Shown: piece after piece, positions 417-62,547 of the stretch | Numbering within the stretch: the stretch's first letter is position 1 | How the letters are laid out: every line of letters begins with the position of its first letter | From: Eledone cirrhosa | Lineage: Eukaryota | Length of the DNA stretch: 64,000 bases | Direction of reading: 5' to 3' | NCBI GenBank assembly: GCA_964016885.1 | Contig: OZ024755.1 | Span: forward strand, 5,952,001 to 6,016,000 | Notes under the pieces: model-generated | Database searches by the model: none | Told to the model about the DNA's origin: nothing | What the model saw: the letters and a program-made list of their open reading frames with translations, nothing else | Translations under genes and position numbers: made by a program

Positions 417-537
417 ATCTTACCTGTTTTATTCCCAATGGCATCAACGAGGACTTCTATATCTAGCTTTGGTGTTGAATCTGTCATTGTGTATATTTGA
501 GAAACCAGCTGTCCCTGGTTGTGAATTACCAGTTTGG
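417..537 (+). CDS. TPC exon (IS1): [40 protein letters not shown]
   Basis: tttcag acceptor, gtaagt donor, FEKPA motif after S1. Confidence 0.88.
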
Positions 538-3500
538 GTAAGTTTAAAGTTTATTTCAATTTATTTTTATTACATTGGAAGCAGCATGGCCAAATGTTTT
601 CAGAAGTTTTCTTTGCAATCATTAGGTCCCGTGTTCAATCACATCATGGGAAATCATGTCATTTATCATAGCCTTGGGTCGATCGAAGCCTTCAGTGTGA
701 AATTGGAGTGACAGTAATTGTCTGACAGTCCATCAGGTGGACTGTATAAGTATACTAATACTAATTGTTTCTACTATTGGCACAAGGCCAGCAAATTACC
801 CAGTACATTACTGGTACTTTATTTTATCGACCCCCGTAAGGATGAAAGGCAAAGTTAACCTCGGCGGGATTTGAACTCAGAATGGCAAGGGCTGTAACTC
901 TATGCGTCAAAGCCTGGCGTCTGACCCTCTACCGATACTGCCCATTCACCGCCCTAATACTAATACTAATGTTTCTACTTTAGACACAAGGCCAACAATT
1001 TGAAGGGGGGGGGGGAGATTAAATCGACCCCAGTGTATTACTGGTACTTTATTTTATCCACCCAGTAAGGATGAAAGGCAAAGCTAACCTTGGCAGGATT
1101 TGAACTTAGGGGTTAGCTTTTAGCTTTGCTTTTCATCCTTACGGGCTCGATAAATAAAGCACCAGTAATGTACTGAGGTTGATTTAATTGACTTTCCCCA
1201 CCCCTTCAAAATGCTGGTGGCCTTGTACTTAAAGTAGAAATAATTATTATCAGTACTAATAATAATAAGAAATTTTTTTTTTAAATCTTCTAATCTAGTA
1301 TTTTTGTCTCTTGCAGGCCACATGTCTACTAGAATTGTTTTGTCTCATTATATTCCTCATCCGAATCATTCATACAGCTTACTTTGATGAAATAGAGAAA
1401 TTCTGGAAAGATACTAAATACTTGCTGCTCATAATAATAATGGTGGTAAGTGTGATATTCTGTAATTGATATCAGAACTATAACAAGATTAACCCTCTAC
1501 CATTTACATTACTCTATATTTAATATTGTATTTTCATGGTAAACTCTTTATTTCACATAATTATTTCACAGTATATTGAATCTACGAGACTTTGATATTA
1601 TTTATTTTGATAACAATACCTTAACATAAGTATGAGCAGCCGGTTATGGCCGGTTTGAGCAACCAGTTATGGCCGGTGAGAGAATTCTGGCCGTATATGG
1701 TGGCCGGTTTAAATGCTAAAGGGTTAAAGATGGTATAACTAAATCTGTAGTGAAATATTTTTGAGGTTTGTAATCCAATAAAATATATACCATTCTTTCC
1801 GTTTGGATTCCTTCTCTGGGATTTGAACTCCTTCCTCGGTAGCCAAGAACTCCCCGTTAGAGATTCACTGAACTAGAGGCAGTTTTGCTTATAAATAACT
1901 GCCTTAAATGTTTTCATTACCAAATATACACTCTTTTACTCTTTTACTCTTTTACCTGTTTCAGCCATCCGGCTGAGGCCATGCTGGGGCACCGTTTTTC
2001 AAATAATGTTTTTCAAATAATTTTGAAAATACAAAAATTTTGAAGGATTTGGTTCTCTAATTTCCTTATTATTATATTGGCAGTATCGGTAGAGGATCGG
2101 ACACCATAGAGTTATGGCCCTTTACGGTTTGATTTCAAATCCCACTGAGGTTAACTTTGCCTTTCATCCTTACTGGGGTCGATAAAATAAAGTACCAGTA
2201 ATGCACTGGGGTAATTGCTGGCCTTGTGCCAAAAGCAGAAACAATTATTATGTTGGTGTAACAAAGGTTCTTGCCAGATACTTGCCAGGTTTAAGCCTTT
2301 AGCATTTAAACCAGCCATATCTGGCCACCATTATCTCACTTCTTTCTGTTGAAACCAGCCATGACTGGCTACTCATACTGATATTAAAGTATTGTTCTCA
2401 AAATAAATAATATCAAAATCTCATAGATTTGATATTATGTGAGATAAAATGTTTACAGTGAAAATACAATAGTAAATATAGAGTAATGTAAATGCTAAAG
2501 GGTTAAAAAGGCCTTAGAAATGCCATATGTCAATACAGTGACCCCTAAACTCCCTAAGGAGTCACGGGACCATCCATCCATATATCTTTCCTGCTGCACT
2601 AAATAACATAAATCATATTTATATTTCCACCGTTCTCTCTTCTTCTAGCTCACCGTTATTGATATGTTGACCTACAGTATGTGGATTACATTTGCCCCAG
2701 CTGGAGCATTACGGTGGTCTAGATCTTTACGGCCGTTTCTGATTGTTAATTTCCCAGAAGGTAGACAGGTAAGATTTAAGATATAAACATCTTGTACAAC
2801 TATGCTGCCGCCTCTTTCCTCTCACACACTTACACACACTCTTTTCTCCCTACAACTGTCTCTCTCTCATCCCTCTCTCTCCTTCCCTTCCCCTCAATCT
2901 TCCTCTCCCTACCTCTTCCCTCAATCTTCCTCTCCCTACCTCTTCCCTCATTCCTCTCATTCTCTCTCTCATTCTTTCCTTCCCCTCTCTCTCTCTCTCC
3001 CTTCTCTCTCTCTCTCTCCCCTCCCTCTCTTCCATTCCCTGCCCATCTTCCCTTTCTTTCTTCCCTCCCCTCTCTCCCTTCTCTCACCACTCTCTCCTTC
3101 TCACTCCTCTCCCTCCCAACTCCCTCTGCTCCTCCCCTCATACTCACACATTCTCCCTTCCCTTCCTCGTCCTTCACACCCTCTTTCTCCCCCTCCCCAC
3201 ACACATACACATGTACACTACACTTAATGGATTTTGAGGTTTTGACTGCCATGGTCTAATTCTGTATAATCCAAATCCACAACTTCTTGTCTTTCTTCTC
3301 TTTTAGATCCGTCAAGCCTTCCGGAACATCCGTCGAGCCCTCCCTGAAGTATTCAACATCTTTATTCTCTTCACCCTCACCCTCTGTCTTTTCAGTCTCC
3401 TGGCTCTGAAGCTTTACTCTCACAGGTCTGTAAACTAACCCTCTTAGACTTTCTTCATTGCTATACCCTCTGATCGATTGACAAGATCCCAGACCTCATT

Positions 3501-6500
3501 CACCTGCCAGTGGGGTGGACTCCCTCAAATCGGACTAAGGAAACATTGTTTTCATTGGTCTTTCTATTGCTGATACTATCGGTGGCAAGTCCTGGCAGAA
3601 GGAGCAAGGAGCAATGTGAAATAAAGTGTCTTGCTCAAGGGCACAATTTATCACCTGGTCCGAGAATTGAACTTGCAACCTCACAATTGTGAAAACCAAC
3701 TCTAACCACTACGCTAAATGCTTTCACTTCATTACTATAACATACCAATGATTCCCAGTGCATTACTGGTACTTTATTTTATCGACTCTGTAAGGATGAA
3801 AGGCAAAGTAAACCTCGGCAGGATTTGAACACAATGTAAAGAACTGTAACTCTATGCTGCAAAGTATGGTATCCAACGCTGAATAGCAGCTTGTAAGATT
3901 GCCATATTTTGCTTCCAGAAAAGCCGTATCTCCTCAATATGGCATCCCTATGAGTCCCTCAGGAGTTACGAGACTAAATATACAAACAATCATATGATTT
4001 CATAAGTTAAAATCTGATCAAAGCCAAAGACTTATCAGGCCAGTGCTTATCCCTGGTTCCCTTGGCATTAAGCAACTGAGAGTATAAGTCTCTCCCTGGA
4101 TAGGACACCAGTCCACCGTAGCATTAACTTCCCACCTACTGCTGGTAGTCACTCTCAGCTGAGTGTATTGTAGCAATGTGAAATAAAGTGTTTTTCTCAA
4201 GAACACAACACAGCAGCCTATCCAGGAATTGAATTGATGATGTTATGATTGTACGGCAAGCAGCTTAACCATTAGGCTATCTTCCTTCACAAATGATTTC
4301 ATAAACGCCTTGATTAACTTCTTAACATATTATTTTTGTTATATTGACAGAGGTTTACATTTCCCAGATGGTACCCCATATTTCACAAATTACATTGAAA
4401 GTATCTGGCAGTTGTATGTGTTGGTAACGACAGCCAATAACCCAGATGTCATGTAAGTACAAAGATATGTTTTTTTTCTTAGAATCCGTCCATACTGCAT
4501 TGAGAATGATATGGACAAATATATTAACCCTTTAGCATTTAAACCATCCAGAATTCTTTCACCTCATTCTGTTCAAACTGGCTATAACTGGCTGCTTATA
4601 CTGATATTATGGTGTTGCTTTCAAAATAAATGATATCAAAATCTCATAGATTCGATATTATGTGAGATAATTATGAGGTAAAGACTTTACTGTGAAAATA
4701 TAATAGTAAATATTGAGTAATCATCATCATCATTTCATGTCAACTTTTCCCTGCTTGCAAGGGTGGGACGGGTCCTATTCAGCACAGCATCTCTCCACTT
4801 GTCACAGTTCTTCGTCATCTTCTCCATGAGATTCAGCGATCTGAGGTCAGCTCTCATCACCTCCGCTCATGATTTCTGTGGTCTTTCTCTACTGTGTCTT
4901 GCTTCTACTGGGATTTCTTGGCACTTCTTTACCCAGCGCTCATCCTCCATGTGCATCACATGTCCATATCAATGTAGTCTTCTCTCCCGCATGCTACGCC
5001 ACAACTTATCCCTCTTATACACAGTTTCTCTCTCAACTTGTCTATGCTTGGTCATTCACGCACATTGACATTGTACAGAATAATGTAAATTATAAAGGGT
5101 TAATAAATAAATATACACACATTTGCTATCATTAAAGTTGATGTATTTGTAAGTACTTTCCTTAGAATCCATTCACACCACATTGAGACAGATATGAACA
5201 AATATATAAATATATAAATATACACACATTCATTATCATTAAAGTTAATGTATCTTTCTTTCCAGGATGCCAGCCTATGACCTCAGTAACTGGGAAGCTC
5301 TCTTCTTCATCACAGTTCTAATTGTTCTCCTATACATCTTCATGAGTATTGTCCTTGCTGCCATATACAGCAGTTACAGGGATAATCTCAAAGTAGGTAC
5401 TCCTTGCTGTCATATACAACAGTTACAGGGATAATCTTAAAGTAGGTACTCCTTGCTGTCATATACAACAGTTACAGGGATAATCTTAAAGTAGGTACTT
5501 CTTGCTGTCATATACAACAGTTACAGGGATAATCTTAAAGTAGGTACTCCTTGCTGTCATATACAACAGTTACAGGGATAATCTCAAAGTAGGTACTTCT
5601 TGCTGCCATATACAACAGTTACAGGGATAATCTTAAAGTAGGTACTCCTTGCTGCCATATACAACAGTTACAGGGATAATCTCAAAGTAGGTACTCCTTG
5701 CTGTCATATACAACAGTTACAGGGATAATCTCAAAGTAGGTACTTCTTGCTGCCATATACAACAGTTACAGGGATAATCTTAAAGTAGGTACTCCTTGCT
5801 GTCATATACAACAGTTACAGGGATAATCTTAAAGTAGGTACTCCTTGCTGTCATATACAACAGTTACAGGGATAATCTCAAAGTAGGTACTTCTTGCTGT
5901 CATATACAACAGTTACAGGGATAATCTCAAAGTAGGTACTACTTGCTGTCATATACAACAGTTACAGGGATAATCTCAAAGTAGGTACTCCTTGCTGTCA
6001 TATACAGCAGTTACAGGGATAATCTTAAAGTAGGTACTCCTTGCTGCCATATACAACAGTTACAGGGATAATCTCAAAGTAGGTACTTCTTGCTGTCATA
6101 TACAACAGTTACAGGGATAATCTCAAAGTAGGTACTTCTTGCTGTCATATACAACAGTTACAGGGATAATCTCAAAGTAGGTACTTCTTGCTGTCATATA
6201 CAACAGTTACAGGGATAATCTCAAAGTAGGTACTTCTTTCGGATTGGCTAAATAAACGATATGGTATGAAATAAATCTTTCTAAATTTTGCACAAGGCCA
6301 GCAATTCAGGGGAAAGTAGAAAGTTGATTAAATTGATCCCACTGTGTTACTGGTACATTATTTTATCGATTCCGGAATGATGAAAAATAAAGTTGACTTT
6401 GGCATGATTTGAACCCAGAGCGTAAAGAGCCATAACTCTATGCTGCAAAGCATGGTGTCAGACACTGTACCGATACTGCCATTTCACCGTCCTTATCAAC

Positions 6501-7241
6501 CTCATAATGATGAAAGCCAAAACTAAATTTTATGGGATTTGAACCCCAAACCACACAGTTGCACGCTAAAGATTTTTTTTTTTTACCATACTGCTATGCT
6601 TACCTCAATATTTATAACATTTTGGTCATAATTTTTATTTTTGCCACCTGAAAATATTATTTCTATTCATTTATTTCCTATTTTTCCTCGTCAGATGGAG
6701 GTAAAAGATGTGGTGTATAGCAAAAGACAAAGATTAAAGAAGGCCTTTGACATTTTGAAAGTGACCCATAACAATCAATATGTTATAACTAAAGAAGTCT
6801 GGATGAAACTTATGACATATGTCCTACCCAAGCGAAGTATCCAACAACATGAATTGTTACTGAAGGTTCTTGATGCTGACAGGGATGGAACTATCAGTAA
6901 GTACCAATAACCTCCCTCCTCACTTTTACACATTAACCTTTTAACATTTACATTGCTCTATATATACTATTATATTTTCACAGTAAAGGCTTTACCTCAC
7001 ATAATACCTCAGATAACATTTACATTGCTCTATATATACTATTATATTTTCACAGTAAAGGCTTTACCTCAGAATTATCTCAGATAATATCGAATCTATG
7101 AGATTTTGATATCTATTTTGAGAACAATAACTTAAGTATGAGTGGCCAGTTAAAGCCGGTTAGAACAGAAAGAGGTGAGAGAATTCTGGCTGGACACGAC
7201 CAGTTTAAATGCTAAAGGGGTTCCTTACACCACTTTCTTTG

Positions 7242-7289
<48 letters not shown>

Positions 7290-7579
7290 AGATAGTCGAT
7301 CAGCCAGATCCCAGAAATCGTAATCGAACCAGTCTCATGCCTTCTCTCCCTCTCTCTGTATATATATCTATATATATATAGGAAAAAGTATGACCCCGAC
7401 GGCAGAGCTCAACCCGTTTCGACGGCTATTTCTGGACTATTTCTGTCCAGAAATAGCCGTCGAAACGGGTTGAGCTCTGCCGTCGGGGTCATACTTTTTT
7501 CTATTTCCCACTCGACTACCCTAAGTATTATAACTCTGGTGCGTTATGGTCCATCTGGTTCCTTACCACAATTCCTTTG

Positions 7580-7639
<60 letters not shown>

Positions 7640-9291
7640 CATTTAACATAATTAAGGCTAAATAGTGAGTCCTGTTACTCTGGAGTTTTGTCTGTTTATC
7701 ACAGGGTCATCAGACAAGATGTTTTTGTCTAATGACCCTGTGATAAACAGACGAAACTCCAGAGTAACAAGACTCACATTTTAGCTTTAATAATATTGAA
7801 TATTAAAGTTCTATTTAGGTATTGAGTACTCCTTTCTCTCAGCCATCAACCACATTCAGCGTCTTCATTCTCTAATCTCTGATAAATCTGGTTCAATGTA
7901 TTCCTCCCTTCATCCACCCAAATGATATTATATTCTTGTGCTTTTACTTACAGAAATAAACCAATTCTTAAAGGTTGCTGATCTTCTTCAGCTTCCACTG
8001 ACTGAAGTGAAAGACAGAATGTCATTTCTGGAGACCCATTGTCCAACATTATACAACAGTTATCCCAGTAATGTTGTTAAAATAGCTGTAAAACATCGGT
8101 GAGTCACTCATAAGTTTGTGTATTGCATTGGACCTCCGTTGTTCCAGTTGTTTGAACAACGGAACAGCCTGATTTTTGATAGAATAGCTGTTAAAAAGCT
8201 GCTTAACCCTTTAGCATTTAAACCAGCCATATCTGGCCAGAAATCTCTCACCTGTTTCTGTTCAAACTGGATGTAACCAGCCACAGATACTTATGTTAAG
8301 GTTTTGCTCTCAAAATAAATATCAAGATCTCATAGATTTGGTATTATGTGAAATATTATGAGATAAAGCCTTTACCTCAAATATAATAGTATATGTAGAG
8401 TAATGTAAATGGTAAAGGATTAAACATATGCAAGTCACTCATAAGATTATGCATTGAGTTGGACTTTCATTGGTTCTGGAAAATTGTTACAATAATTATT
8501 AGTAGATATTATAGGAGTAGATTTAATTGGTCATACAATTAGCCCATACAAAAATCTGATGTGTTTAGTCAAAAGGAATATATGAGGGGGGCTGAAAGTT
8601 CCTGGCTTTGGGTAAAAGAAAATACAGGCTGATCAGTTAATTATGATTTTATTCAACATATTCAGCTATTATCATTTAAAAAACCATATTTCCATATTTA
8701 TAATACCTATCATCATCATCATCATTTTATGTCCGCTCTCCTTGCTTGGAAGGGTGGGACGGGTCCTATTCAGCATCTCTCCACTTGTCACAGTCCTTTG
8801 TCATCTCCTCCGTGAGCTTCAGCGATATGAGGTCTGCTCTCACCACCTCCGCCCATATTTTGTGGTCTTCCTCTACTGTGTCTTCCTTTACTGCGTCTTC
8901 CTTTACTGCGTCTTCTTTCTACTGGGATTTCTTGCCACTTCTTTACTCAGCGGTCATCCTCCATGCGCATCACATGTCCATACCAACGCAGTCTTCTCTC
9001 CTGCACACAACTTATCCCTCTTAAACACAGGTTCTCCCTCAACTCATCTATATATACATATATGAATGTATCCTAGGTTCAATCCGGAGTGACCACAGTA
9101 ATACATACCAGAGTATAAATTTTGAATATAGAAATGGCTTCTACACAACTAGAACTGTTTCATTCAAAGGCTGAAACAGTTATAGTCCTGTAGAAGCCAT
9201 TTCTCTCTCTTTCTCTCTCTCTCTGTCCAAAGTTCAATCAGGTGTAATCACAGTAAGTAAGGTACTCAATACATTAGTAGAGTATATACAA

Positions 9292-9342
<51 letters not shown>

Positions 9343-10365
9343 TTATTGTTCCAGATTCTTCAGTTGGTTTTTTGATGCTTTGATTTTTGTTAATGCTTGG
9401 ATCATTGGGTTTGATATCGATGAAGCTGATTGGTTTTTCCTGTCGGTATTTATGATTGAGATTTTGTTGAAACTTTATGTATTTGGAGTACAGAAGTTTT
9501 TCCATCGATTCTGGAATATGTAAGTATCGAATCTTTCGCCTTTTTAATGGCTTTCTACAGTTGTTTTATATTTCAGAAAAAAAAAGGAGCTAATCATCAG
9601 ATCAGACTAATGAAACTGTTTTTATTGGTGTCTCTATTGCTGATACTAAGAGCTGGTTTATGGAGCAATTGTCAGTGCACTCTGTAATGTAGTTGACATT
9701 ATGTAGGACATCCAACTATAGAAACCTTGCTAAACTCTAACTCATATTAGCAAAACATAGCTCTCAGCTCTTCCAGGAGACAGTGGCTCTAATGAAGAAT
9801 TGATTTATTTTGTAACAATTCATCCAACTCATGGCAGCTTGGAAGAACAGACATAACATGTTTGGTTTTCATTTCAGTATATATAAATATATTTTTTATA
9901 TATTTCTATAAATAATTTAGCTGGCAATCAATGTTTATCATTGATTGACCAACAGTTAAAAATATAAATATAAATATAATTTCTCAAAGTGCTTTTGTCA
10001 CACATTTTCCAGTGACATGATGTTAATGAATATCAATTTATAATGATTTAATCACTTTAATATAGTTTTAAATAATCTATTTTAGATTTGACTTTTTCGT
10101 CATCAATGGAGCTTTGGTTTTCACAATATATGATTTTATAGAATCTGAAGGTAAGTTATATTTTTTTAGTATTTTACTGGTTTCAGTGATTAGACTGTGG
10201 CCATGCTGGAACAATACCTTCAAGTGACTTGGTTGATCATATCTATCATATCGACTTATTTTTCAAGCTTAGTACATATTCCATCAATCTCTTTTCATCA
10301 AACTGCAAATTATGAGACATTAACAAGCAGTAAATGCTAACATATACCCCCACCCATATATATAT

Positions 10366-10423
<58 letters not shown>

Positions 10424-11802
10424 AGCAAGTATTGCACCGAGAAGAATATAGACTTTGGCGTGAAAAGAGAGAAATAATTTATTTGCTTTAACATATGTTT
10501 CTATGTCTATTATAATAGTCTACATGTGCTGACTACAATATATATTGTTCAATCATATACAATACATACTTATTTATTACATGTCTTCAAAAAGCTTAAA
10601 TTTGTTTGTAGTAGTAGTATATTGATATACATAAACAAAACCTTATCTACCCTTCCACACAAATATATAGAGAGAGGAGATGGGTTCTGCCAGGTTTTAA
10701 AAAATGCCCTAGAAATTCTGTATGTCGATATGGCGACCATACATTCATACATATATTACGTAATATCTTTCTGGGATTTATGTTATTTTGAATATTTTTC
10801 AGAGCAAAATAATTCCTATGTATTGGATTTATTTTTGGTAATGAGAGTTCTGCGGCTTTTCAAGACTTTTGGTAACATTAAAAGGTAAGTTTATCCTCTG
10901 TTTTTTATGTGTAAAGATTTTATACTGTGTTTCCTACTAAGTCCCACACAAAACTACATATCATCATTGATATTTATATATTAGGCACACACACATACAC
11001 AAAGTATTATTAATAGTGGAAAACACACACATACACACACACACACAAATACACACACATACACACACAAACACATACACACACAAATTAGTAAATAATA
11101 ATAATAATTGTTTCTACTTTTGGCACAAGGCCAGCAATTATCCCAGTGTATTACTGGTACTTTATTTTATCAACCCCCATAAGGATGAAAGGCAAAGTTA
11201 ACCTCGGTGGGATTTGAACTCCAACCATAAGGGGCTGTAACTCATTACTGCAAAGCATGGCGTCCGACCCTCTACTGATACTGCCAATCCACCAATAATG
11301 GTTTCAGATATAGGCACAAGGCTAGCAATTTTGGTGGGAGGGGAAAGTTGATTTAATCAACCCCTAGTGCATTACTGGTACTTTATTTTATCGACCACGT
11401 ATATAATAATGATAATAATTTCTTTATTAATTACAAATGGATAACATTAAAGACAGTACAGGTCAGCAAATGGGGTTTCTCTGTGGAAAAACAAACATAA
11501 AACAAAAAAAGGATGTAACAAAAATAACAAAAAAACCCAAAGAAAATTCCCCAATAAGGGGGGAAAACTTCCCAGGGTCAATAATAATGATTTCTTATAT
11601 AGGCACAAGGCCAGTAATTTGGGAGGAGGGGAAAGTCGATTAAATCGACCCCAGTGCATTACTGGTACTTTATTTTGTCGACCCCGTAAGGATGAAAGGC
11701 TAAGTTAACCTCGGCTGGATTTGAACTCAGATCGTAAAGGGACGTAACTATGCTAGAAAGCATGGCGTCCCACCCTCTACAGATACTGCCAATTCACCGT
11801 CC

Positions 11803-11838
<36 letters not shown>

Positions 11839-14776
11839 TTTTTTTCTGTTTTAGGTTCCGGTTGGTAATCATGACTATAGTTAACATAGCTCCATCTATG
11901 ACTACCTACGGATCGATCATGTTTGTAAGTTATTAGTTATTATTAAAAATCTGGCAGTGCCCCAGCATGGCCTCAGCCAGTTCACTGGAACACGTAATAG
12001 ATAAAAAAAAGTTATAAAGTGGTTCAGTAGCAGAATTAATTGATAGCAGGGGATTACTAGTATCAATTTGAATTAATGGTTTCTGATTTAGATAAAAGGG
12101 TAACAATTTTGGGGGAGGGGAAAGTCAATTAAACCAACCTCAGTGTCCTCAGTGTATTACTGGTACTTTATTTTATTGACCCCGTAAGGATGAAAGGTAA
12201 AGTTAACCTCGGCAGGATTTGAACTCAGAACATAAAGGGCCGTAACTATATGCTGCAAAGACTATCAATATTAATGAATGGTTTTTAATAATTGTTTCTA
12301 CTTTAGGCACAAGGCCAGCAATTACCCAGTGCATTACTGGTACTTAATAATGTTCTTTAGATATAACCTACAGACTAAACCTCACTTTAATGTTCTTTAG
12401 TCTTAACGTACAGACTAAACCTCAGTTTAATGTTCTTTTGTCTTAACCTACAGACTAAACCTCAGTTTAATGTTCTTTAGTCTTAACCTAGAGACTAAAC
12501 CTTGGTTTAACTTCTGTTTTTTTTTCTTTTCTTCTCATAACCAGATTTTCTACTATACCTTCGCTATTATTGGGATGGAAGTATTCCATGGTCTCATCAG
12601 ATTTAATGGCTATAATGAATCTTACACGGAGCAAAATAACATAAGTTTCTGCGGCAACTTGAAGTTGAAGTATTCTGATTATTATAACGAACATTACTGC
12701 AACAACAATTTCAACCATATTTTCAAGTCAATGGTTATACTTGTTGAACTGACTGTGGTTAACCAATGGCATAATATCCTTTCTGATTTAAGCATAAGGC
12801 CAGCAATTTGGAAGAAGTCCTCGCCTGCCCCTTAACCCTTCAGCATTTACATTATTCTATATATACGATTGTATTTTCATGGTAAAGGCTTTCCTTCACA
12901 TAATTATCCCACATAATATCGAATCTACAAGATTTTGATATTATTTATTTTGAGAACAATACCTTAACATCAGTTTGAGTGGCTGGTTACAGCCAGTTTG
13001 AACAGAAAGAGGTGAGAGATTTCTGGCTGGACACAGCCGGTTTTAATGTCAAAGGGTTAAGGCTCACAAAACTTCAATCTTCCGCCATCATGGTCTATCT
13101 GTCGTGGTTCTCTTGACATTTCTCAAACTAATTTTGGTCTGTCCGAGGTCCTCCTGGAATGTTTGGCTCCCGGTACTTTTGGAGGAATAAAGTGTCATTC
13201 TTGAAGTATTTGTTATTCGTTTTCCCGTATTCTCATTATATGGACCCTTACCAACTGACATGGTTGTGGGGGCACTGTAGTAATATTTAGGGCACTTTAT
13301 AGTTCCAGAGGCCATCCTTCATCAGGTCAGAACAGTGCCAGTTTCTTAATTTGTGAAGGTGCGGGTCCTGAGTGGTTACAGAATTGAATTCGCAATCGTG
13401 AGGTTGTGATTTCGATTCCTGGACCAGGTGATGCGTTATGTCCTTGAGCAAGACACTTAATTTCACGTTGCTCCTTCTACTTGGAGTTACGACCGATAGA
13501 TAGTATTAGCAATTGGAAAGACCAACGGAAACATTGTTCCCTCGGTCCGATTTGACGAAAGTCGATTGTTTTATATATATATATATATATGAGAGAGAGA
13601 ATCCACCCGAGGATTTATTTATAGACCTCAAAATGATGAAATGTAAAGTTGACCTCAGCATTATTTGAACTCAGAGAGCGAAGAACTTAAATAGCCTTAA
13701 ATCCGACATTCGAAAGACTCTCCTGCCAATTCTTCACCTTACTAATTTTCATGTTATGTAACTGTAACTATACAAAAGCAATAATGATGGGGGTATGTAA
13801 ATTTTCAAAATGTGAATGAAATATATTTTTGAACAAGCTGAAGAAACAATTAATTCTTTCCTCCCACTTGACATGTTATAAGTTATGGTTATACTATGTG
13901 TTGTTTCCTTACATATGAGGTACTTCTGACTTCAGGCTTCGTGTTGGTTACGAACAAATTTGCTCGACTCTATTTTCTTGCTTTTCACATCTGCTGTGTG
14001 GTCATCATTTTGAAGTAAGTTGTGTGATAACATTTTACTACAATAACCTTGCAGTCATAACAGTATTAACATCTGTAGCATAAAGGCTAAAGACTACAAA
14101 CAATATTATATGTATAAATGTATATATGTATGTGTGTGTGTTTATAGCAAATTTATATATATATATATACGTATGTGTGTGAAGTGAAAGTCCAAATATT
14201 ATTGTTTTCAGATGCTCATATATTATGAATCACACTGTTAGTACGATTGTAATGTAAATATTATATTATTGAATGTATATATTCACACAGTTTGTGTATA
14301 TGTAAGAAATCTAAAAATCTCATTGACTGTATTCATGTATGTATATGTTTAAAATAGTAAATATATAATTGTTTGTATGTATGCAATTTATGTGTGTAAA
14401 AATAATATTCTCGTTGTGTATTTCCAGTATCTTTATAGCTTTTGTCATTGAAGCCTTTATTTTGGAGTATACTCTTAGTAAACAGGGTAAACCTGAGACC
14501 GTCATTGAATCAACGATTAAAGAACTTGGTTATAAAGGGGGAGTGTAAGTATGGATTACTTATTTAGAATTGTCATTAGAAAAATGTGGCTTACTGCACA
14601 GGACAAGGACAGTTAACTTCTGGAAATCGCTACGGTTTTGGTGCATTATATATCAGGACGGCTTTCCTGATGATTTCCTTCAAGTGAAACAGTTCTAATC
14701 CTGTAAAAGCCATTTCTATATTACATTTTGTTGTATACACTCTACTTATGTATTTAGTACCTTACTTATTGTACTC

Positions 14777-14813
<37 letters not shown>

Positions 14814-16142
14814 TGTTTTATTATAGAAATTACTACTACAGGACTAGACTAGACCTATTTCATTTGTAAGGAATCGTCAGGAAAATCCTGATGATTCCTT
14901 ACGAATAAAATAGTTCTAGTCCTGTAGTAGTCATTTCTATAATAAAATGTATATACCTATACTCTACTAATGTATTGAGTACTTTTTTTTAACAATGGCC
15001 ACTTCCCGATTTACTTCAGGATCCTACATATCATCATTTCATCATTTCATTTTACGTCCGCTTTTTCCCTGCCTGCAAGGGTGGGACGGGAACTGATTCT
15101 GGCTTGATTTCTACAGCTGGATGCCCTTCCTAACACCAACCTCATTTACAGTGCTGGGTGTTTTTTTGCCGTGGCACCTACACGACCACTTTGCAGTGGA
15201 ATGATAGGGACTGGGGTCCCTATCATCTCATTTCTACAGCTGAAATAACTGGAGCAATGTGAAATAAAGTGTCTTGCTGAAGGAAACAACACATCACCCG
15301 GCCTGAGAATTGAACTCACAACCTTTCGATTGCAAGGCCAATGCTCTAACCACTAAGCCATGTACCTGTGTGTGTGTGTGTGTGTGCGTGTGTGTGCGTG
15401 TGTGTGCGTGCGCGCCTAATTTTGATTTCAGTCTAAATGTCAAACGACTTTTCTTTACAGATATAAATCTACAAAGAAAACAAAACCTTCAAAAAGTTCT
15501 GACAAAGAAAACTTTGCAGATATAGATACATCACCTGCCACTTTTGACAATGCCGATGACACTGATTCTGATACAAACAGTATTGAAGATGTTTCATTAC
15601 ACAGAGGCTTTAGATTCCACTTAAAGAAAAATGGTAAGAAATTTTCAACTTTTCACACTTTGTGTTTTATCTTTATATATATTTTTGTACATAGTTTGTA
15701 TATAGTATATATAGTTGTATATAGTTTGTATATAGTTTGTATTTGTCATTCATTGTGAAGACTCGTGGTTGTGTGGTTAGAGAATTGAATTCACAACCCA
15801 ACGGTTGAGTTCGATTCCTGGTCCGGGTGATGTGTTATGTCCTTGGGTAAGACACTTTATTTCATGTTGCTCCTTCTACCTGGAGTTGCGACCAATAGAT
15901 ATTATAAGCAATTGGAAAGACCAATGGAAACCTTGTTTCGTCGGTCTGATTTGATGAAAGTTGACCGACTGTTGATTGTTTGAGAATTTAACCTTTCACT
16001 AATCCATTATTTTTGTTTCTCTTTCTGTTCTTTCCAAACCTGTACAGCCCGTAAAAGCATGCGAGTCATTCTCCAGCAAATGTTTGAAGAAGAGATTGAT
16101 GAACCAACTGCCAGAAAACTCACTTTTGATTCAGTAATGTGA
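417..16142 (+). CDS. TPCN3: Two-pore channel, TPC3-like; spliced gene, 17 coding exons in window, 5' end outside window
   Basis: Exons joined by hand: 417-537, 1317-1445, 2649-2768, 3307-3425, 4351-4452, 5266-5392, 6695-6896, 7954-8098, 9355-9519, 10086-10150, 10803-10884, 11855-11924, 12545-12773, 13924-14014, 14428-14544, 15461-15633, 16048-16142. Total 2152 nt with a continuous frame to TGA at 16140-16142. Motifs: IS4 RWSRSLRP, pore [18 protein letters not shown]-hand-like [11 protein letters not shown]4 MRVLRLFK, pore [13 protein letters not shown]6 [12 protein letters not shown]. The TPC family call is secure; the TPC3 subtype rests on recalled motifs (VVNQW) and is less certain. Confidence 0.9.
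765..955 (-). mobile_element. tRNA-derived SINE, representative copy. Further full or partial copies at about 970-1240, 2075-2245, 3750-3880, 6277-6490, 11105-11400, 11590-11800, 12078-12345, 17178-17395, 19697-19970, 20170-20500, 57892-57990
   Basis: Minus strand has A-box-like TGGGCAGTATCGG (TGGCAGTATCGG in other copies) and B-box GAGTTCAAATCCC; shared core GCCTTTCATCCTTACGGGGTCGATAAAATAAAGTACCAG; AT-rich tail. Confidence 0.85.
1317..1445 (+). CDS. TPC exon (IS2): [43 protein letters not shown]
   Basis: ttgcag/gtaagt boundaries, in frame with neighbours. Confidence 0.9.
1489..1727. mobile_element. TTAA-flanked MITE, piggyBac-like (copies at 2291-2506, 4524-5103 interrupted, 6933-7222, 8203-8423, 12832-13060, 18867-19082, partial 18130-18243)
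   Basis: TTAA-CCCTTTAGCATTTA ... TAAATGCTAAAGGG-TTAA terminal inverted repeats with a conserved ~220-bp body. Confidence 0.8.
2649..2768 (+). CDS. TPC exon (IS3-IS4): [40 protein letters not shown]
   Basis: ctag/gtaag boundaries, S4 arginine repeat. Confidence 0.92.
2810..3210. repeat. Polypyrimidine (CT-rich) low-complexity tract
   Basis: About 400 bp almost purely C/T on the + strand. Confidence 0.9.
3307..3425 (+). CDS. TPC exon (S4-S5 linker, IS5): [39 protein letters not shown]
   Basis: tttag/gtctgt boundaries, basic linker plus TM segment. Confidence 0.92.
4351..4452 (+). CDS. TPC exon (pore I): [33 protein letters not shown]
   Basis: TTANNPDV selectivity filter; gacag/gtaag boundaries. 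Confidence 0.95.
4720..5070 (-). mobile_element. LINE 3' fragment, RTE-like (related copies at 8709-9050 and 15030-15090)
   Basis: (ATG)n tail on the minus strand, shared GCTTGCAAGGGTGGGACGGG, decayed ORF end. Confidence 0.65.
5266..5392 (+). CDS. TPC exon (IS6): [42 protein letters not shown]
   Basis: tccag/gtaggt boundaries, MMPAY motif completed across the junction. Confidence 0.92.
5352..6233 (+). repeat. 49-bp tandem repeat x18 made from an exon 3' end plus its splice donor
   Basis: Unit TCCTTGCTGTCATATACAACAGTTACAGGGATAATCTCAAAGTAGGTAC; first unit overlaps the coding exon. Confidence 0.97.
6695..6896 (+). CDS. TPC exon (cytosolic linker, EF-hand-like)
   Basis: [22 protein letters not shown]...[13 protein letters not shown]; tcag/gtaagt. 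Confidence 0.92.
7383..7499. repeat. Perfect 55-bp inverted repeat with 7-nt loop, carrying a hammerhead 3' half
   Basis: Arms 7383-7437 and 7445-7499; contains GAAA-CGG...CCG-TC. Confidence 0.9.
7670..7772. ncRNA. Inverted pair of degenerate type-I hammerhead motifs (- 7670-7719, + 7723-7772)
   Basis: Consensus TCTTGT CTGATGA CC CTGT-GATAA-ACAG AC GAAA CTC-CA-GAG TA ACAAGA; each copy has one core mutation. Confidence 0.6.
7954..8098 (+). CDS. TPC exon: [47 protein letters not shown]
   Basis: tacag/gtgagt; phases match both neighbours. Confidence 0.9.
9355..9519 (+). CDS. TPC exon (IIS1-IIS2): [20 protein letters not shown]...[21 protein letters not shown]
   Basis: ccag/gtaagt; EILLKLY..G..FF...WN channel motif. 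Confidence 0.93.
10086..10150 (+). CDS. TPC exon (IIS3): [21 protein letters not shown]
   Basis: tttag/gtaagt; completes WN-I-FD. Confidence 0.9.
10803..10884 (+). CDS. TPC exon (IIS4): [26 protein letters not shown]
   Basis: ttcag/gtaagt; voltage-sensor R/K repeat. Confidence 0.92.
11855..11924 (+). CDS. TPC exon: [23 protein letters not shown]
   Basis: tttag/gtaagt; phases match. Confidence 0.9.
12348..12507 (+). repeat. 40-bp tandem repeat x4
   Basis: Unit TAATGTTCTTTAGTCTTAACCTACAGACTAAACCTCAGTT. Confidence 0.9.
12545..12773 (+). CDS. TPC exon (IIS5-pore II): [16 protein letters not shown]...YCNNNFN...[10 protein letters not shown]
   Basis: ccag acceptor; ends at the U12-type donor ATATCCTTT. 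Confidence 0.92.
12774..13923 (+). other. U12-type (minor spliceosome) AT-AC intron
   Basis: 5' end ATATCCTTTC; branch-like TTTCCTTAC at 13904-13912; terminal AC at 13922-13923; splicing restores NQWH-I-LTSGF in frame. Confidence 0.85.
13357..13570 (+). mobile_element. Second tRNA-derived SINE family (also about 3525-3725 -, 15245-15360 -, 15765-15975 +, 55735-55825 - partial)
   Basis: GTGGTTA...TTCGATTCCTGG box, shared GTCCTTGAGCAAGACACTT and CAATTGGAAAGACCAA segments. Confidence 0.75.
13924..14014 (+). CDS. TPC exon (IIS6 start): [29 protein letters not shown]
   Basis: Follows the AC acceptor; gtaagt donor. Confidence 0.9.
14428..14544 (+). CDS. TPC exon: [38 protein letters not shown]
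   Basis: tccag/gtaagt; S6 gate motif. Confidence 0.92.
14659..14980. mobile_element. Penelope-like pLTR remnants with degenerate hammerhead motifs (direct copy at about 14659-14770, inverted pair at about 14812-14950)
   Basis: CTGATGATT...GAAACAGTTCTAATCCTGTA...GCCATTTCTAT...GTATTGAGTAC; same family as 9121-9290, 58940-59020 and 62100-62192. Confidence 0.6.
15461..15633 (+). CDS. TPC C-terminal exon: YKSTKKTKP...[15 protein letters not shown]
   Basis: tacag/gtaag; open in the required phase. Confidence 0.82.
16048..16142 (+). CDS. TPC last coding exon: [30 protein letters not shown]
   Basis: tacag acceptor, phase match, TGA stop. Confidence 0.85.
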
Positions 16143-62347: not shown

Positions 62348-62547
62348 NNNNNNNNNNNNNNNNNNNNNNNNNNNNNNNNNNNNNNNNNNNNNNNNNNNNN
62401 NNNNNNNNNNNNNNNNNNNNNNNNNNNNNNNNNNNNNNNNNNNNNNNNNNNNNNNNNNNNNNNNNNNNNNNNNNNNNNNNNNNNNNNNNNNNNNNNNNNN
62501 NNNNNNNNNNNNNNNNNNNNNNNNNNNNNNNNNNNNNNNNNNNNNNN
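62348..62547. other. Assembly gap (200 N)
   Basis: Run of n characters. Confidence 1.

What the first reader, a model, noticed from the sequence alone, without database searches (positions are those of the whole stretch)
12774..13923. Hidden U12-type AT-AC intron right after the second selectivity filter of a two-pore channel
Seen: the pore-II exon reads VVNQWH with no GT donor at that point, and is followed by ATATCCTTTC. 1150 nt later come TTTCCTTAC and then TAC| directly before TT CTG ACT TCA GGC TTC. Joining gives [14 protein letters not shown] and keeps the whole 17-exon frame intact. Established: ATATCCTT plus a TCCTTRAC-type branch 10-20 nt from a terminal AC defines minor-spliceosome introns, and AT-AC introns occur in the related voltage-gated Na+/Ca2+ channel genes. 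Inference: expression of this channel depends on the minor spliceosome. Retention reads on to NILSDLS...PAP* (12835) and removes IIS6. GT-AG-only annotators probably mis-model this junction, for example using the TTCAG at 13935.
Basis: partly seen in the sequence, partly recalled or inferred. Interest (0 to 1): 0.75.

Follow-up and report, generated by a model that had tools for sequence, protein, structure and literature searches.

The report
Ancient minor intron in octopus TPC3
An octopus ion-channel gene (TPC3) carries a rare AT-AC intron that the cell's second, minor splicing machinery likely removes; matching intron signals sit at the same spot in coral-, clam-, sea-squirt- and fish-like relatives, so it is an old, ordinary example that gene databases often get wrong.

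Summary
Confirmed. 12774-13923 is a 1150-nt phase-1 intron, ATATCCTTT...AC, in an octopod TPC3 gene. It is the best of 4817 in-frame junctions against octopod orthologues; the other 15 in-window introns are GT-AG. U11, U12, U4atac and U6atac genes are in the genome. In 22 of 28 metagenome hits a TPC3 exon has a U12 donor at the identical position (14 AT, 8 GT). All 10 complete introns pair AT with AC or GT with AG, and the coral-like ones are GT-AG (subtype switch). In this genome TPC1 has only GT donors where mapped, and TPC2 is intronless. Corrections: the branch site is a one-adenosine variant (CCTTACAT, as in mouse Vac14), not TCCTTRAC; the gene has 19 coding exons; the three octopod database models are correct, although 18 of 141 long homologue models read through the donor. 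No RNA of this species was available, so splicing is inferred from orthologues. I found no paper on this intron, probably because human and rodents lack a working TPC3. An earlier scan note reports AT-AC introns in another eukaryote's TPC gene, one of them at filter I, a different site. Verdict: new member of a known kind.

The parts
417..16142 (+). TPC3 gene, coding exons 3-19 (417-537, 1317-1445, 2649-2768, 3307-3425, 4351-4452, 5266-5392, 6695-6896, 7954-8098, 9355-9519, 10086-10150, 10803-10884, 11855-11924, 12545-12773, 13924-14014, 14428-14544, 15461-15633, 16048-16142); exons 1-2 lie upstream in L039
   Evidence: closest solved structure of orthologue P0003 is a TPC3 chain (6v1q), E 2e-169, against TPC1 4e-66 and TPC2 3e-45
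12545..12773 (+). Exon for IIS5, the pore loop and selectivity filter II; ends one base into the Ile codon after VVNQWH
   Evidence: domain names from recalled channel topology
12774..13923 (+). U12-type AT-AC intron, 1150 nt, phase 1; interior largely interspersed repeats shared with other places in the window
12774..12783 (+). U12 5' splice site ATATCCTTTC; 0 mismatches to TATCCTTT against 3-7 for the other 15 donors; predicted to pair with the genome's U11 5' end
12833..12835 (+). In-frame TAA reached if the intron is retained (20 codons in)
13900..13913 (+). Branch region, core TTTCCTTAC 13904-13912; candidate branch adenosines A13911 (-13) and A13913 (-11); predicted duplex with the genome's U12 of -16.8 kcal/mol, with no bulge at the canonical position
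13918..13919 (+). AG 8 nt after A13911; out of frame and nearer than the 11-13 nt optimum
   Evidence: optimum from PMC3584512
13922..13923 (+). Terminal AC acceptor, 12 nt after A13911
13924..14014 (+). Exon for pore helix 2 and most of IIS6, followed by a GTAAGT major donor
13934..13935 (+). In-frame cryptic AG 12 nt into the exon; its use with the minor donor would drop four codons

Best explanation
The stretch 12774-13923 is an AT-AC intron with minor-class (U12-type) signals in an octopod TPC3 channel gene; it is likely removed by the minor spliceosome and likely dates from before the coral-bilaterian split. Shown: the donor, branch-like motif and AC; the unique best frame-restoring junction; the four minor snRNA genes in the genome; a U12 donor at the same codon position and phase in 22 other TPC3 loci. 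Inferred from the established pathway: U11/U12 binds donor and branch site, the 3' end is chosen by distance (AC at 12 nt, not the nearer AG), and U6atac/U12 catalyse. The branch nucleotide is probably A13911 (about 65%), otherwise A13913. An unspliced message would stop at 12833, lose pore helix 2, IIS6 and the tail, and would be held in the nucleus or degraded. TPC3 output would thus depend on minor-spliceosome activity, perhaps more than average because the branch site is off-consensus.
For: Best of 4817 junctions and open 716-codon frame. The other 15 introns are GT-AG. U12, U11 (2 matches), U6atac (15 matches) and U4atac lie over the Rfam cut-offs, and the control genomes rang in 0. 22 of 28 metagenome hits are TPC3 exons; all 22 have TT at donor +8/+9, which the pattern did not require, against 1 of the 6 chance hits. 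10 of the 22 hold the next exon: 7 AT..AC and 3 GT..AG, none mixed, each with a branch-like motif near the end. 37 of 172 homologue proteins carry the translated donor ([ND]IL 32, [SG]IL 5) at this site. 12 hand-picked long proteins from contigs too short for introns show the spliced junction. CCTTACAT is listed as the branch site of human SPC24, human and mouse VAC14 and NUP155 (PMC6717393 supplement 1), and a Vac14 reporter fell 8-fold with U12 blocking against 1.15-fold with U2 blocking (PMC8848931 passages).
Against: No spliced read from this species was seen. The branch site lacks the second purine of the consensus, and the predicted U12 duplex has no bulge at the usual position. The metagenome pattern demanded a U12 donor, so losses or conversions in other animals could not be seen. 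12 of the 22 loci lack the downstream exon. Taxa of the loci rest on a tree of about 100 residues with weak deep nodes. A regulatory role is untested, and PMC10639083 (passages) argues that much minor-intron evolution is neutral.
Confidence: 0.94

Rival explanations
1. A U2-type AT-AC intron of the sodium-channel kind, spliced by the major spliceosome.
For: Such introns exist in sodium-channel genes (PMC2831892 passages), and a scan note reports one in this genome (e1-9500578, unchecked). The branch site is off-consensus.
Against: U2-type AT-AC donors have G at +5; here +4 to +9 is TCCTTT. A TTCCTTA heptamer lies 19 nt from the end with 0 mismatches, against 1-3 in the other 15 introns, and the pyrimidine share before the acceptor is the joint lowest of 16 (0.62). 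Orthologues switch both termini while keeping TCCTTT.
Confidence: 0.02
2. A minor intron whose weak branch site is partly served by U2 snRNP (mixed use, as reported for mouse Tsta3).
For: Some minor introns with suboptimal branch sites use both machineries (PMC8848931 passages).
Against: The same motif class in Vac14 scored low for U2 and was barely affected by U2 block alone. The predicted U12 duplex here is stronger than in the 8 orthologous introns (-16.8 against -4.8 to -12.7 kcal/mol). This reading is compatible with the best explanation, not exclusive of it.
Confidence: 0.1
3. The real junction is a nearby GT-AG or GC-AG pair, or the gene is a pseudogene or mis-assembled, and the AT-AC motif is chance.
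For: An in-frame AG lies at 13935 and GC or GT donors lie within 45 nt of the exon end. Chance ATATCCTT or GTATCCTT matches occur elsewhere in the window (17400, 60824) and inside an exon of TPC1.
Against: The five best canonical alternatives all insert or delete residues in the pore and score at least 69 lower. The frame is otherwise intact. DNA contigs agree at both ends. The same donor recurs at the same site in 22 loci.
Confidence: 0.02

Closest known systems
U12-type (minor) introns, AT-AC subtype (Turunen et al., PMC3584512, passages read)
   Same: Donor ATATCCTTT, branch site 11-13 nt from the AC, weak pyrimidine tract, single minor intron among major ones.
   Different: Branch site has one A (TTTCCTTACAT) instead of TTCCTTRAY.
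Minor introns of voltage-gated Na+ and Ca2+ channel alpha subunits (PMC6865273, PMC2831892, PMC13602164, passages read)
   Same: Same channel superfamily; SCN5A has an ATATCCTTT donor.
   Different: SCN5A minor intron 3 lies at c.392, near the N-terminus, not after a pore filter. Positions in the other Nav and Cav genes were not compared, so positional homology is untested. Human TPCN1 and TPCN2 are not in the minor-intron tables searched.
CCTTACAT-type weak branch sites: mouse Vac14, human SPC24, NUP155 (PMC6717393 supplement 1; PMC8848931)
   Same: Same motif; human SPC24 is listed with the same 11 letters TTTCCTTACAT; Vac14 is U12-dependent in vitro.
   Different: Those listed have GT donors; this intron is AT-AC, and its predicted U12 pairing extends further upstream.
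U12 subtype switches AT-AC / GT-AG (36 U12DB clusters; PMC2831892 passage)
   Same: Orthologous TPC3 introns occur in both subtypes, never mixed in 10 complete cases.
   Different: Seen here between coral-like loci plus one unplaced locus (GT-AG) and octopod, bivalve-, tunicate- and fish-like loci (AT donors); the direction is not resolved.
TPC3 (PDB 6v1q)
   Same: Closest solved relative; same VVNQWH filter context.
   Different: I found no description of its gene's minor intron in the papers searched.

Membership tests
U12-type intron | 5' splice site RTATCCTTT | tested here: met
   ATATCCTTTC at 12774; 0 mismatches against 3-7 for the other donors
U12-type intron | Branch site matching TTCCTTRAY | tested here: inconclusive
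   TTCCTTA is exact but the next base is C, not A. Predicted U12 duplex is strong, and the same variant is listed for human and mouse minor introns.
U12-type intron | Branch adenosine about 11-13 nt from the 3' end | tested here: met
   A13911 is at -13 and A13913 at -11; which one is used is unknown
U12-type intron | Matched termini (AT-AC or GT-AG) that restore the frame | tested here: met
   Best of 4817 junctions; 10 of 10 complete orthologous introns have matched ends
U12-type intron | No distinct polypyrimidine tract | tested here: inconclusive
   0.62 pyrimidine at -20..-5, joint lowest of 16, but one major intron has the same value
U12-type intron | Host genome encodes U11, U12, U4atac, U6atac | tested here: met
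U12-type intron | Removal depends on minor snRNPs | not testable with these tools
   needs a snRNA block or knock-down
U12-type intron | Junction seen in RNA of this species | not testable with these tools
   no RNA run was offered for this stretch
U2-type AT-AC intron (sodium-channel kind) | G at donor +5, U1-type donor | tested here: not met
   +5 is C (criterion)
TPC3 subfamily | Closest to TPC3, with separate TPC1 and TPC2 genes in the genome | tested here: met
   TPC1 at G000:C19 about 15.908-15.939 Mb and TPC2 at G000:C2 about 16.394-16.397 Mb
Nav/Cav minor-intron positions | Same aligned position as a known Nav or Cav minor intron | not tested
   only the SCN5A intron 3 position was seen; Wu and Krainer 1999 is not held

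The most novel reading that the evidence does not exclude
This branch site pairs with U12 as an unbroken 9-13 bp helix and branches from the adenosine just beyond it (A13913), one step out of the textbook register. CCTTACAT sites (also human VAC14, NUP155, SPC24) would then be a distinct class of minor branch site whose splicing rate sets how much intact TPC3 channel an octopus makes.
Probability: 0.2. Interest if true: 0.6.

Novelty: new member of a known kind. Interest (0 to 1): 0.3.

Why it matters
It adds the two-pore channels to the voltage-gated channel families known to carry minor introns, in the one animal paralogue that is a pseudogene in human and missing in rodents (PMC7312350 passage). 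That probably explains its absence from human and mouse lists. It is a clean, old marker intron with a subtype switch. It also has a practical use: a TPC3 database sequence reading NQWH followed by [N/D/S/G]IL has a false pore sequence (18 of 141 long models here), which would mislead pore comparisons and structure prediction. It changes no principle of splicing.

Tried and rejected
RNA: no RNA holder listed. The three runs laid behave as genomic DNA, and the listed joints were at repeats; this is no evidence on expression. Retention in mRNA: the 19 short read-through proteins are single-exon genomic calls, with no spliced upstream junction seen. Paralogue search: a 28-aa and a 33-aa query found only the gene itself; a loose 15-base pattern gave chance-level counts (322 against 293 control); two tighter patterns gave 0; whole proteins then found TPC1 and TPC2. 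Other U12-like donors: 60824 has no open exon before it and neither 60824 nor 17400 has a convincing branch site with acceptor; one in TPC1 lies inside an exon. Six of 28 metagenome hits (L009, L017, L023-L026) were dropped as chance because they have no TPC3 similarity. I recalled a published 'late' U12 branch register, but passages of PMC5378181, PMC4315302 and PMC5959240 did not show it. The direction of the subtype switch could not be rooted. Wu and Krainer 1999 is not held, and the supplement of the zebrafish Zrsr2 paper PMC9501576 could not be read; it, or online tables (MIDB, U12DB and similar), may list this intron.

Full report
Observation. The window shows ATATCCTTTC at 12774, TTTCCTTAC at 13904-13912 and AC at 13922-13923. 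The upstream exon reads to VVNQWH, and read-through stops at 12833-12835. The exon matches octopod proteins at 83-88% and TPC3 proteins across animals. Mapping three octopod proteins gave 17 exons in the window. A junction search that allowed five dinucleotide pairs chose GT-AG for 15 introns and AT-AC for intron 13. Allowing any dinucleotides, 12773^13924 was the best of 4817 in-frame junctions (718; best GC-AG 649, best GT-AG 598). The model is open for 716 codons, 611 of 715 identical to O. sinensis. Two more coding exons, both followed by GT donors, lie upstream in L039, so the gene has 19. Contigs of three DNA runs from one sample cover both intron ends without a listed difference at the signals. 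The interior is mostly interspersed repeat.

The gene. The orthologue P0003 is closest to a solved TPC3 chain, then TPC1 and TPC2. The genome holds a separate TPC1 and TPC2. In TPC1 the donors printed were all GT. Its pore-II intron lies 11 nt further on, after IIM, in phase 0 with a GTGAGT donor, and its filter-I intron has a GTAAGT donor. TPC2 is a single open frame of 853 codons. So within this genome the minor intron at this site is specific to TPC3.

The machinery. U12, U11 (2 matches), U6atac (15 matches, copy status unknown) and U4atac are over the Rfam cut-offs, with no ring in the control genomes. The donor is predicted to pair with the genome's U11 5' end, and the branch region with its U12 at -16.8 kcal/mol. 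The branch site is not the consensus TTCCTTRAY: it has one A, and the predicted helix has no bulge there, while A13913 is left unpaired. In supplement 1 of PMC6717393, CCTTAC occurs 14 times among listed human and mouse branch sites, 7 of them (5 of 12 genes) as CCTTACAT. Sites without a downstream A are listed too, which favours the single A as branch point. For Vac14, which has this motif, blocking U12 cut in-vitro splicing 8-fold and blocking U2 1.15-fold, and the intron is retained in SMN-deficient mice (PMC8848931 passages). The AC is 12 nt from A13911, within the 11-13 nt optimum (PMC3584512 passages); the nearer AG is at 8 nt and out of frame.

Conservation in DNA. One scan of metagenome contigs for the filter codons plus a U12 donor gave 28 loci. 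22 are TPC3 exons and 6 are chance. Of the 22, 14 have AT and 8 have GT donors. All 22 continue with TT at +8/+9, which the pattern did not ask for, against 1 of the 6 chance hits. Ten loci (8 distinct) hold the next exon; their introns are 116-1393 nt, all phase 1, 7 AT..AC and 3 GT..AG, each with a branch-like motif near the end. A tree of 51 rows and 105 columns (16 of the 22 loci included) groups L013 with tunicates, L012 with a teleost, L015, L018 and L022 with bivalves, and the GT loci L006, L007, L010, L028 and L033 with stony corals. L008, L011, L016, L019, L021 and L029 are unplaced, and deep nodes are weak. The scan cannot show losses, because it demanded the donor.

Conservation in proteins. 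Of 172 homologues, 126 matched my pattern for the spliced junction, 37 read into the donor ([ND]IL 32, [SG]IL 5), 7 were other and 2 lacked the motif. Among 141 proteins of 450 residues or more, 18 read through. By source name they come from 11 species: three bivalves, an isopod, amphioxus, elephant shark, four teleosts and tiger. The three octopod models are correct. Twelve long proteins that I picked from contigs too short to hold introns show the spliced junction, the nearest at 67% identity to O. sinensis; this is indirect transcript evidence from relatives. Among 144 unnamed cluster representatives, 5 read through: 4 after NQWH and 1 after NNWH.

Mechanism. Shown: signals, frame, snRNA genes and positional conservation. 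Inferred from the established pathway: recognition by U11/U12, choice of the AC by distance, catalysis by U6atac/U12. Retention would end the protein 20 codons into the intron, before pore helix 2 and IIS6, upstream of three more junctions, so the message would be degraded or held in the nucleus (decay rule recalled; nuclear trapping model). Whether this is used for regulation is untested, and PMC10639083 argues for largely neutral minor-intron evolution (passages).

What is known. Minor introns are a feature of Nav and Cav alpha subunits (PMC6865273 and PMC2831892 passages), and subtype switches were seen in 36 U12DB clusters. U2-type AT-AC introns have G at +5, which this one lacks. Searches for two-pore channel with U12-type intron and TPC3 with intron and minor spliceosome gave 0 papers. 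The listings showed no paper joining the two topics (listings only; one search concerned branch sites, TPC3 loss). TPCN1, TPCN2 and TPCN3 had no hit in the supplements of PMC6717393, PMC11347168 or PMC13216214, and two-pore had none in the main text of PMC1635337 or PMC10639083. TPC3 is a pseudogene in human and missing in rodents (PMC7312350 passage). Online intron databases, subscription papers and one unreadable zebrafish supplement were not seen and may list it. Earlier scan notes: none matched by sequence; one on AT-AC introns in another eukaryote's TPC gene, titled for filter I.

Verdict. Real, well supported and ordinary in kind: a new member of the U12 AT-AC class, with useful extras (old, TPC3-specific in this genome, subtype switch, weak branch site, frequent mis-annotation). 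Interest 0.3.

Noticed in passing
window 5352-6238: A 49-bp tandem array of 18.1 copies repeats the end of a TPC3 coding exon together with its GT donor, giving 18 near-identical donors. Extension to any later copy meets a stop, so only the first donor (5392) gives protein.
   Followed up: partly
G000:C2 about 16394073-16396631 (L058:3073-5631): TPC2 is a single intronless open frame of 853 codons, possibly a retrocopy that replaced the parent. No intron-containing TPC2 was found, but the search used a strict first look.
   Followed up: partly
G000:C19 about 15908000-15939000 (L053-L056): TPC1 gene; a GT intron splits filter I and another lies 11 nt past the TPC3 minor-intron site. An earlier scan note places an AT-AC intron in filter I of another eukaryote's TPC, so the TPC1 filter-I intron could be a converted minor intron.
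   Followed up: partly
proteins P0034, P0099, P0122, P0142, P0145: In five mammal-like genomic gene calls the orthologous intron is short, stop-free and in frame, so retention would insert about 35-52 residues into the pore instead of truncating. The length filter of the search favours such cases.
   Followed up: partly
protein P0002 (O. bimaculoides model): This model reads into the intron after the exon ending at window 5392 and lacks the exon matching 6695-6896; probably an annotation or assembly gap.
   Followed up: no
L016: An unplaced TPC3 locus with a GT-AG minor intron outside the coral group, a possible second subtype switch.
   Followed up: partly
protein P0190: An unnamed TPC with NNWH followed by GIL, suggesting the same donor in a divergent lineage; taxon unknown.
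   Followed up: no
G000, 15 places: U6atac matches are many, while U12 and U4atac gave one each and U11 two; most are probably pseudogenes.
   Followed up: no
window 17400, 60824; 34000-60600; 62348-62547: Two further U12-like donors look like chance. The stretch from about 34 to 60 kb is very AT-rich, with long open frames in many overlapping frames, as simple repeats give. There is a 200-N gap at 62348.
   Followed up: partly
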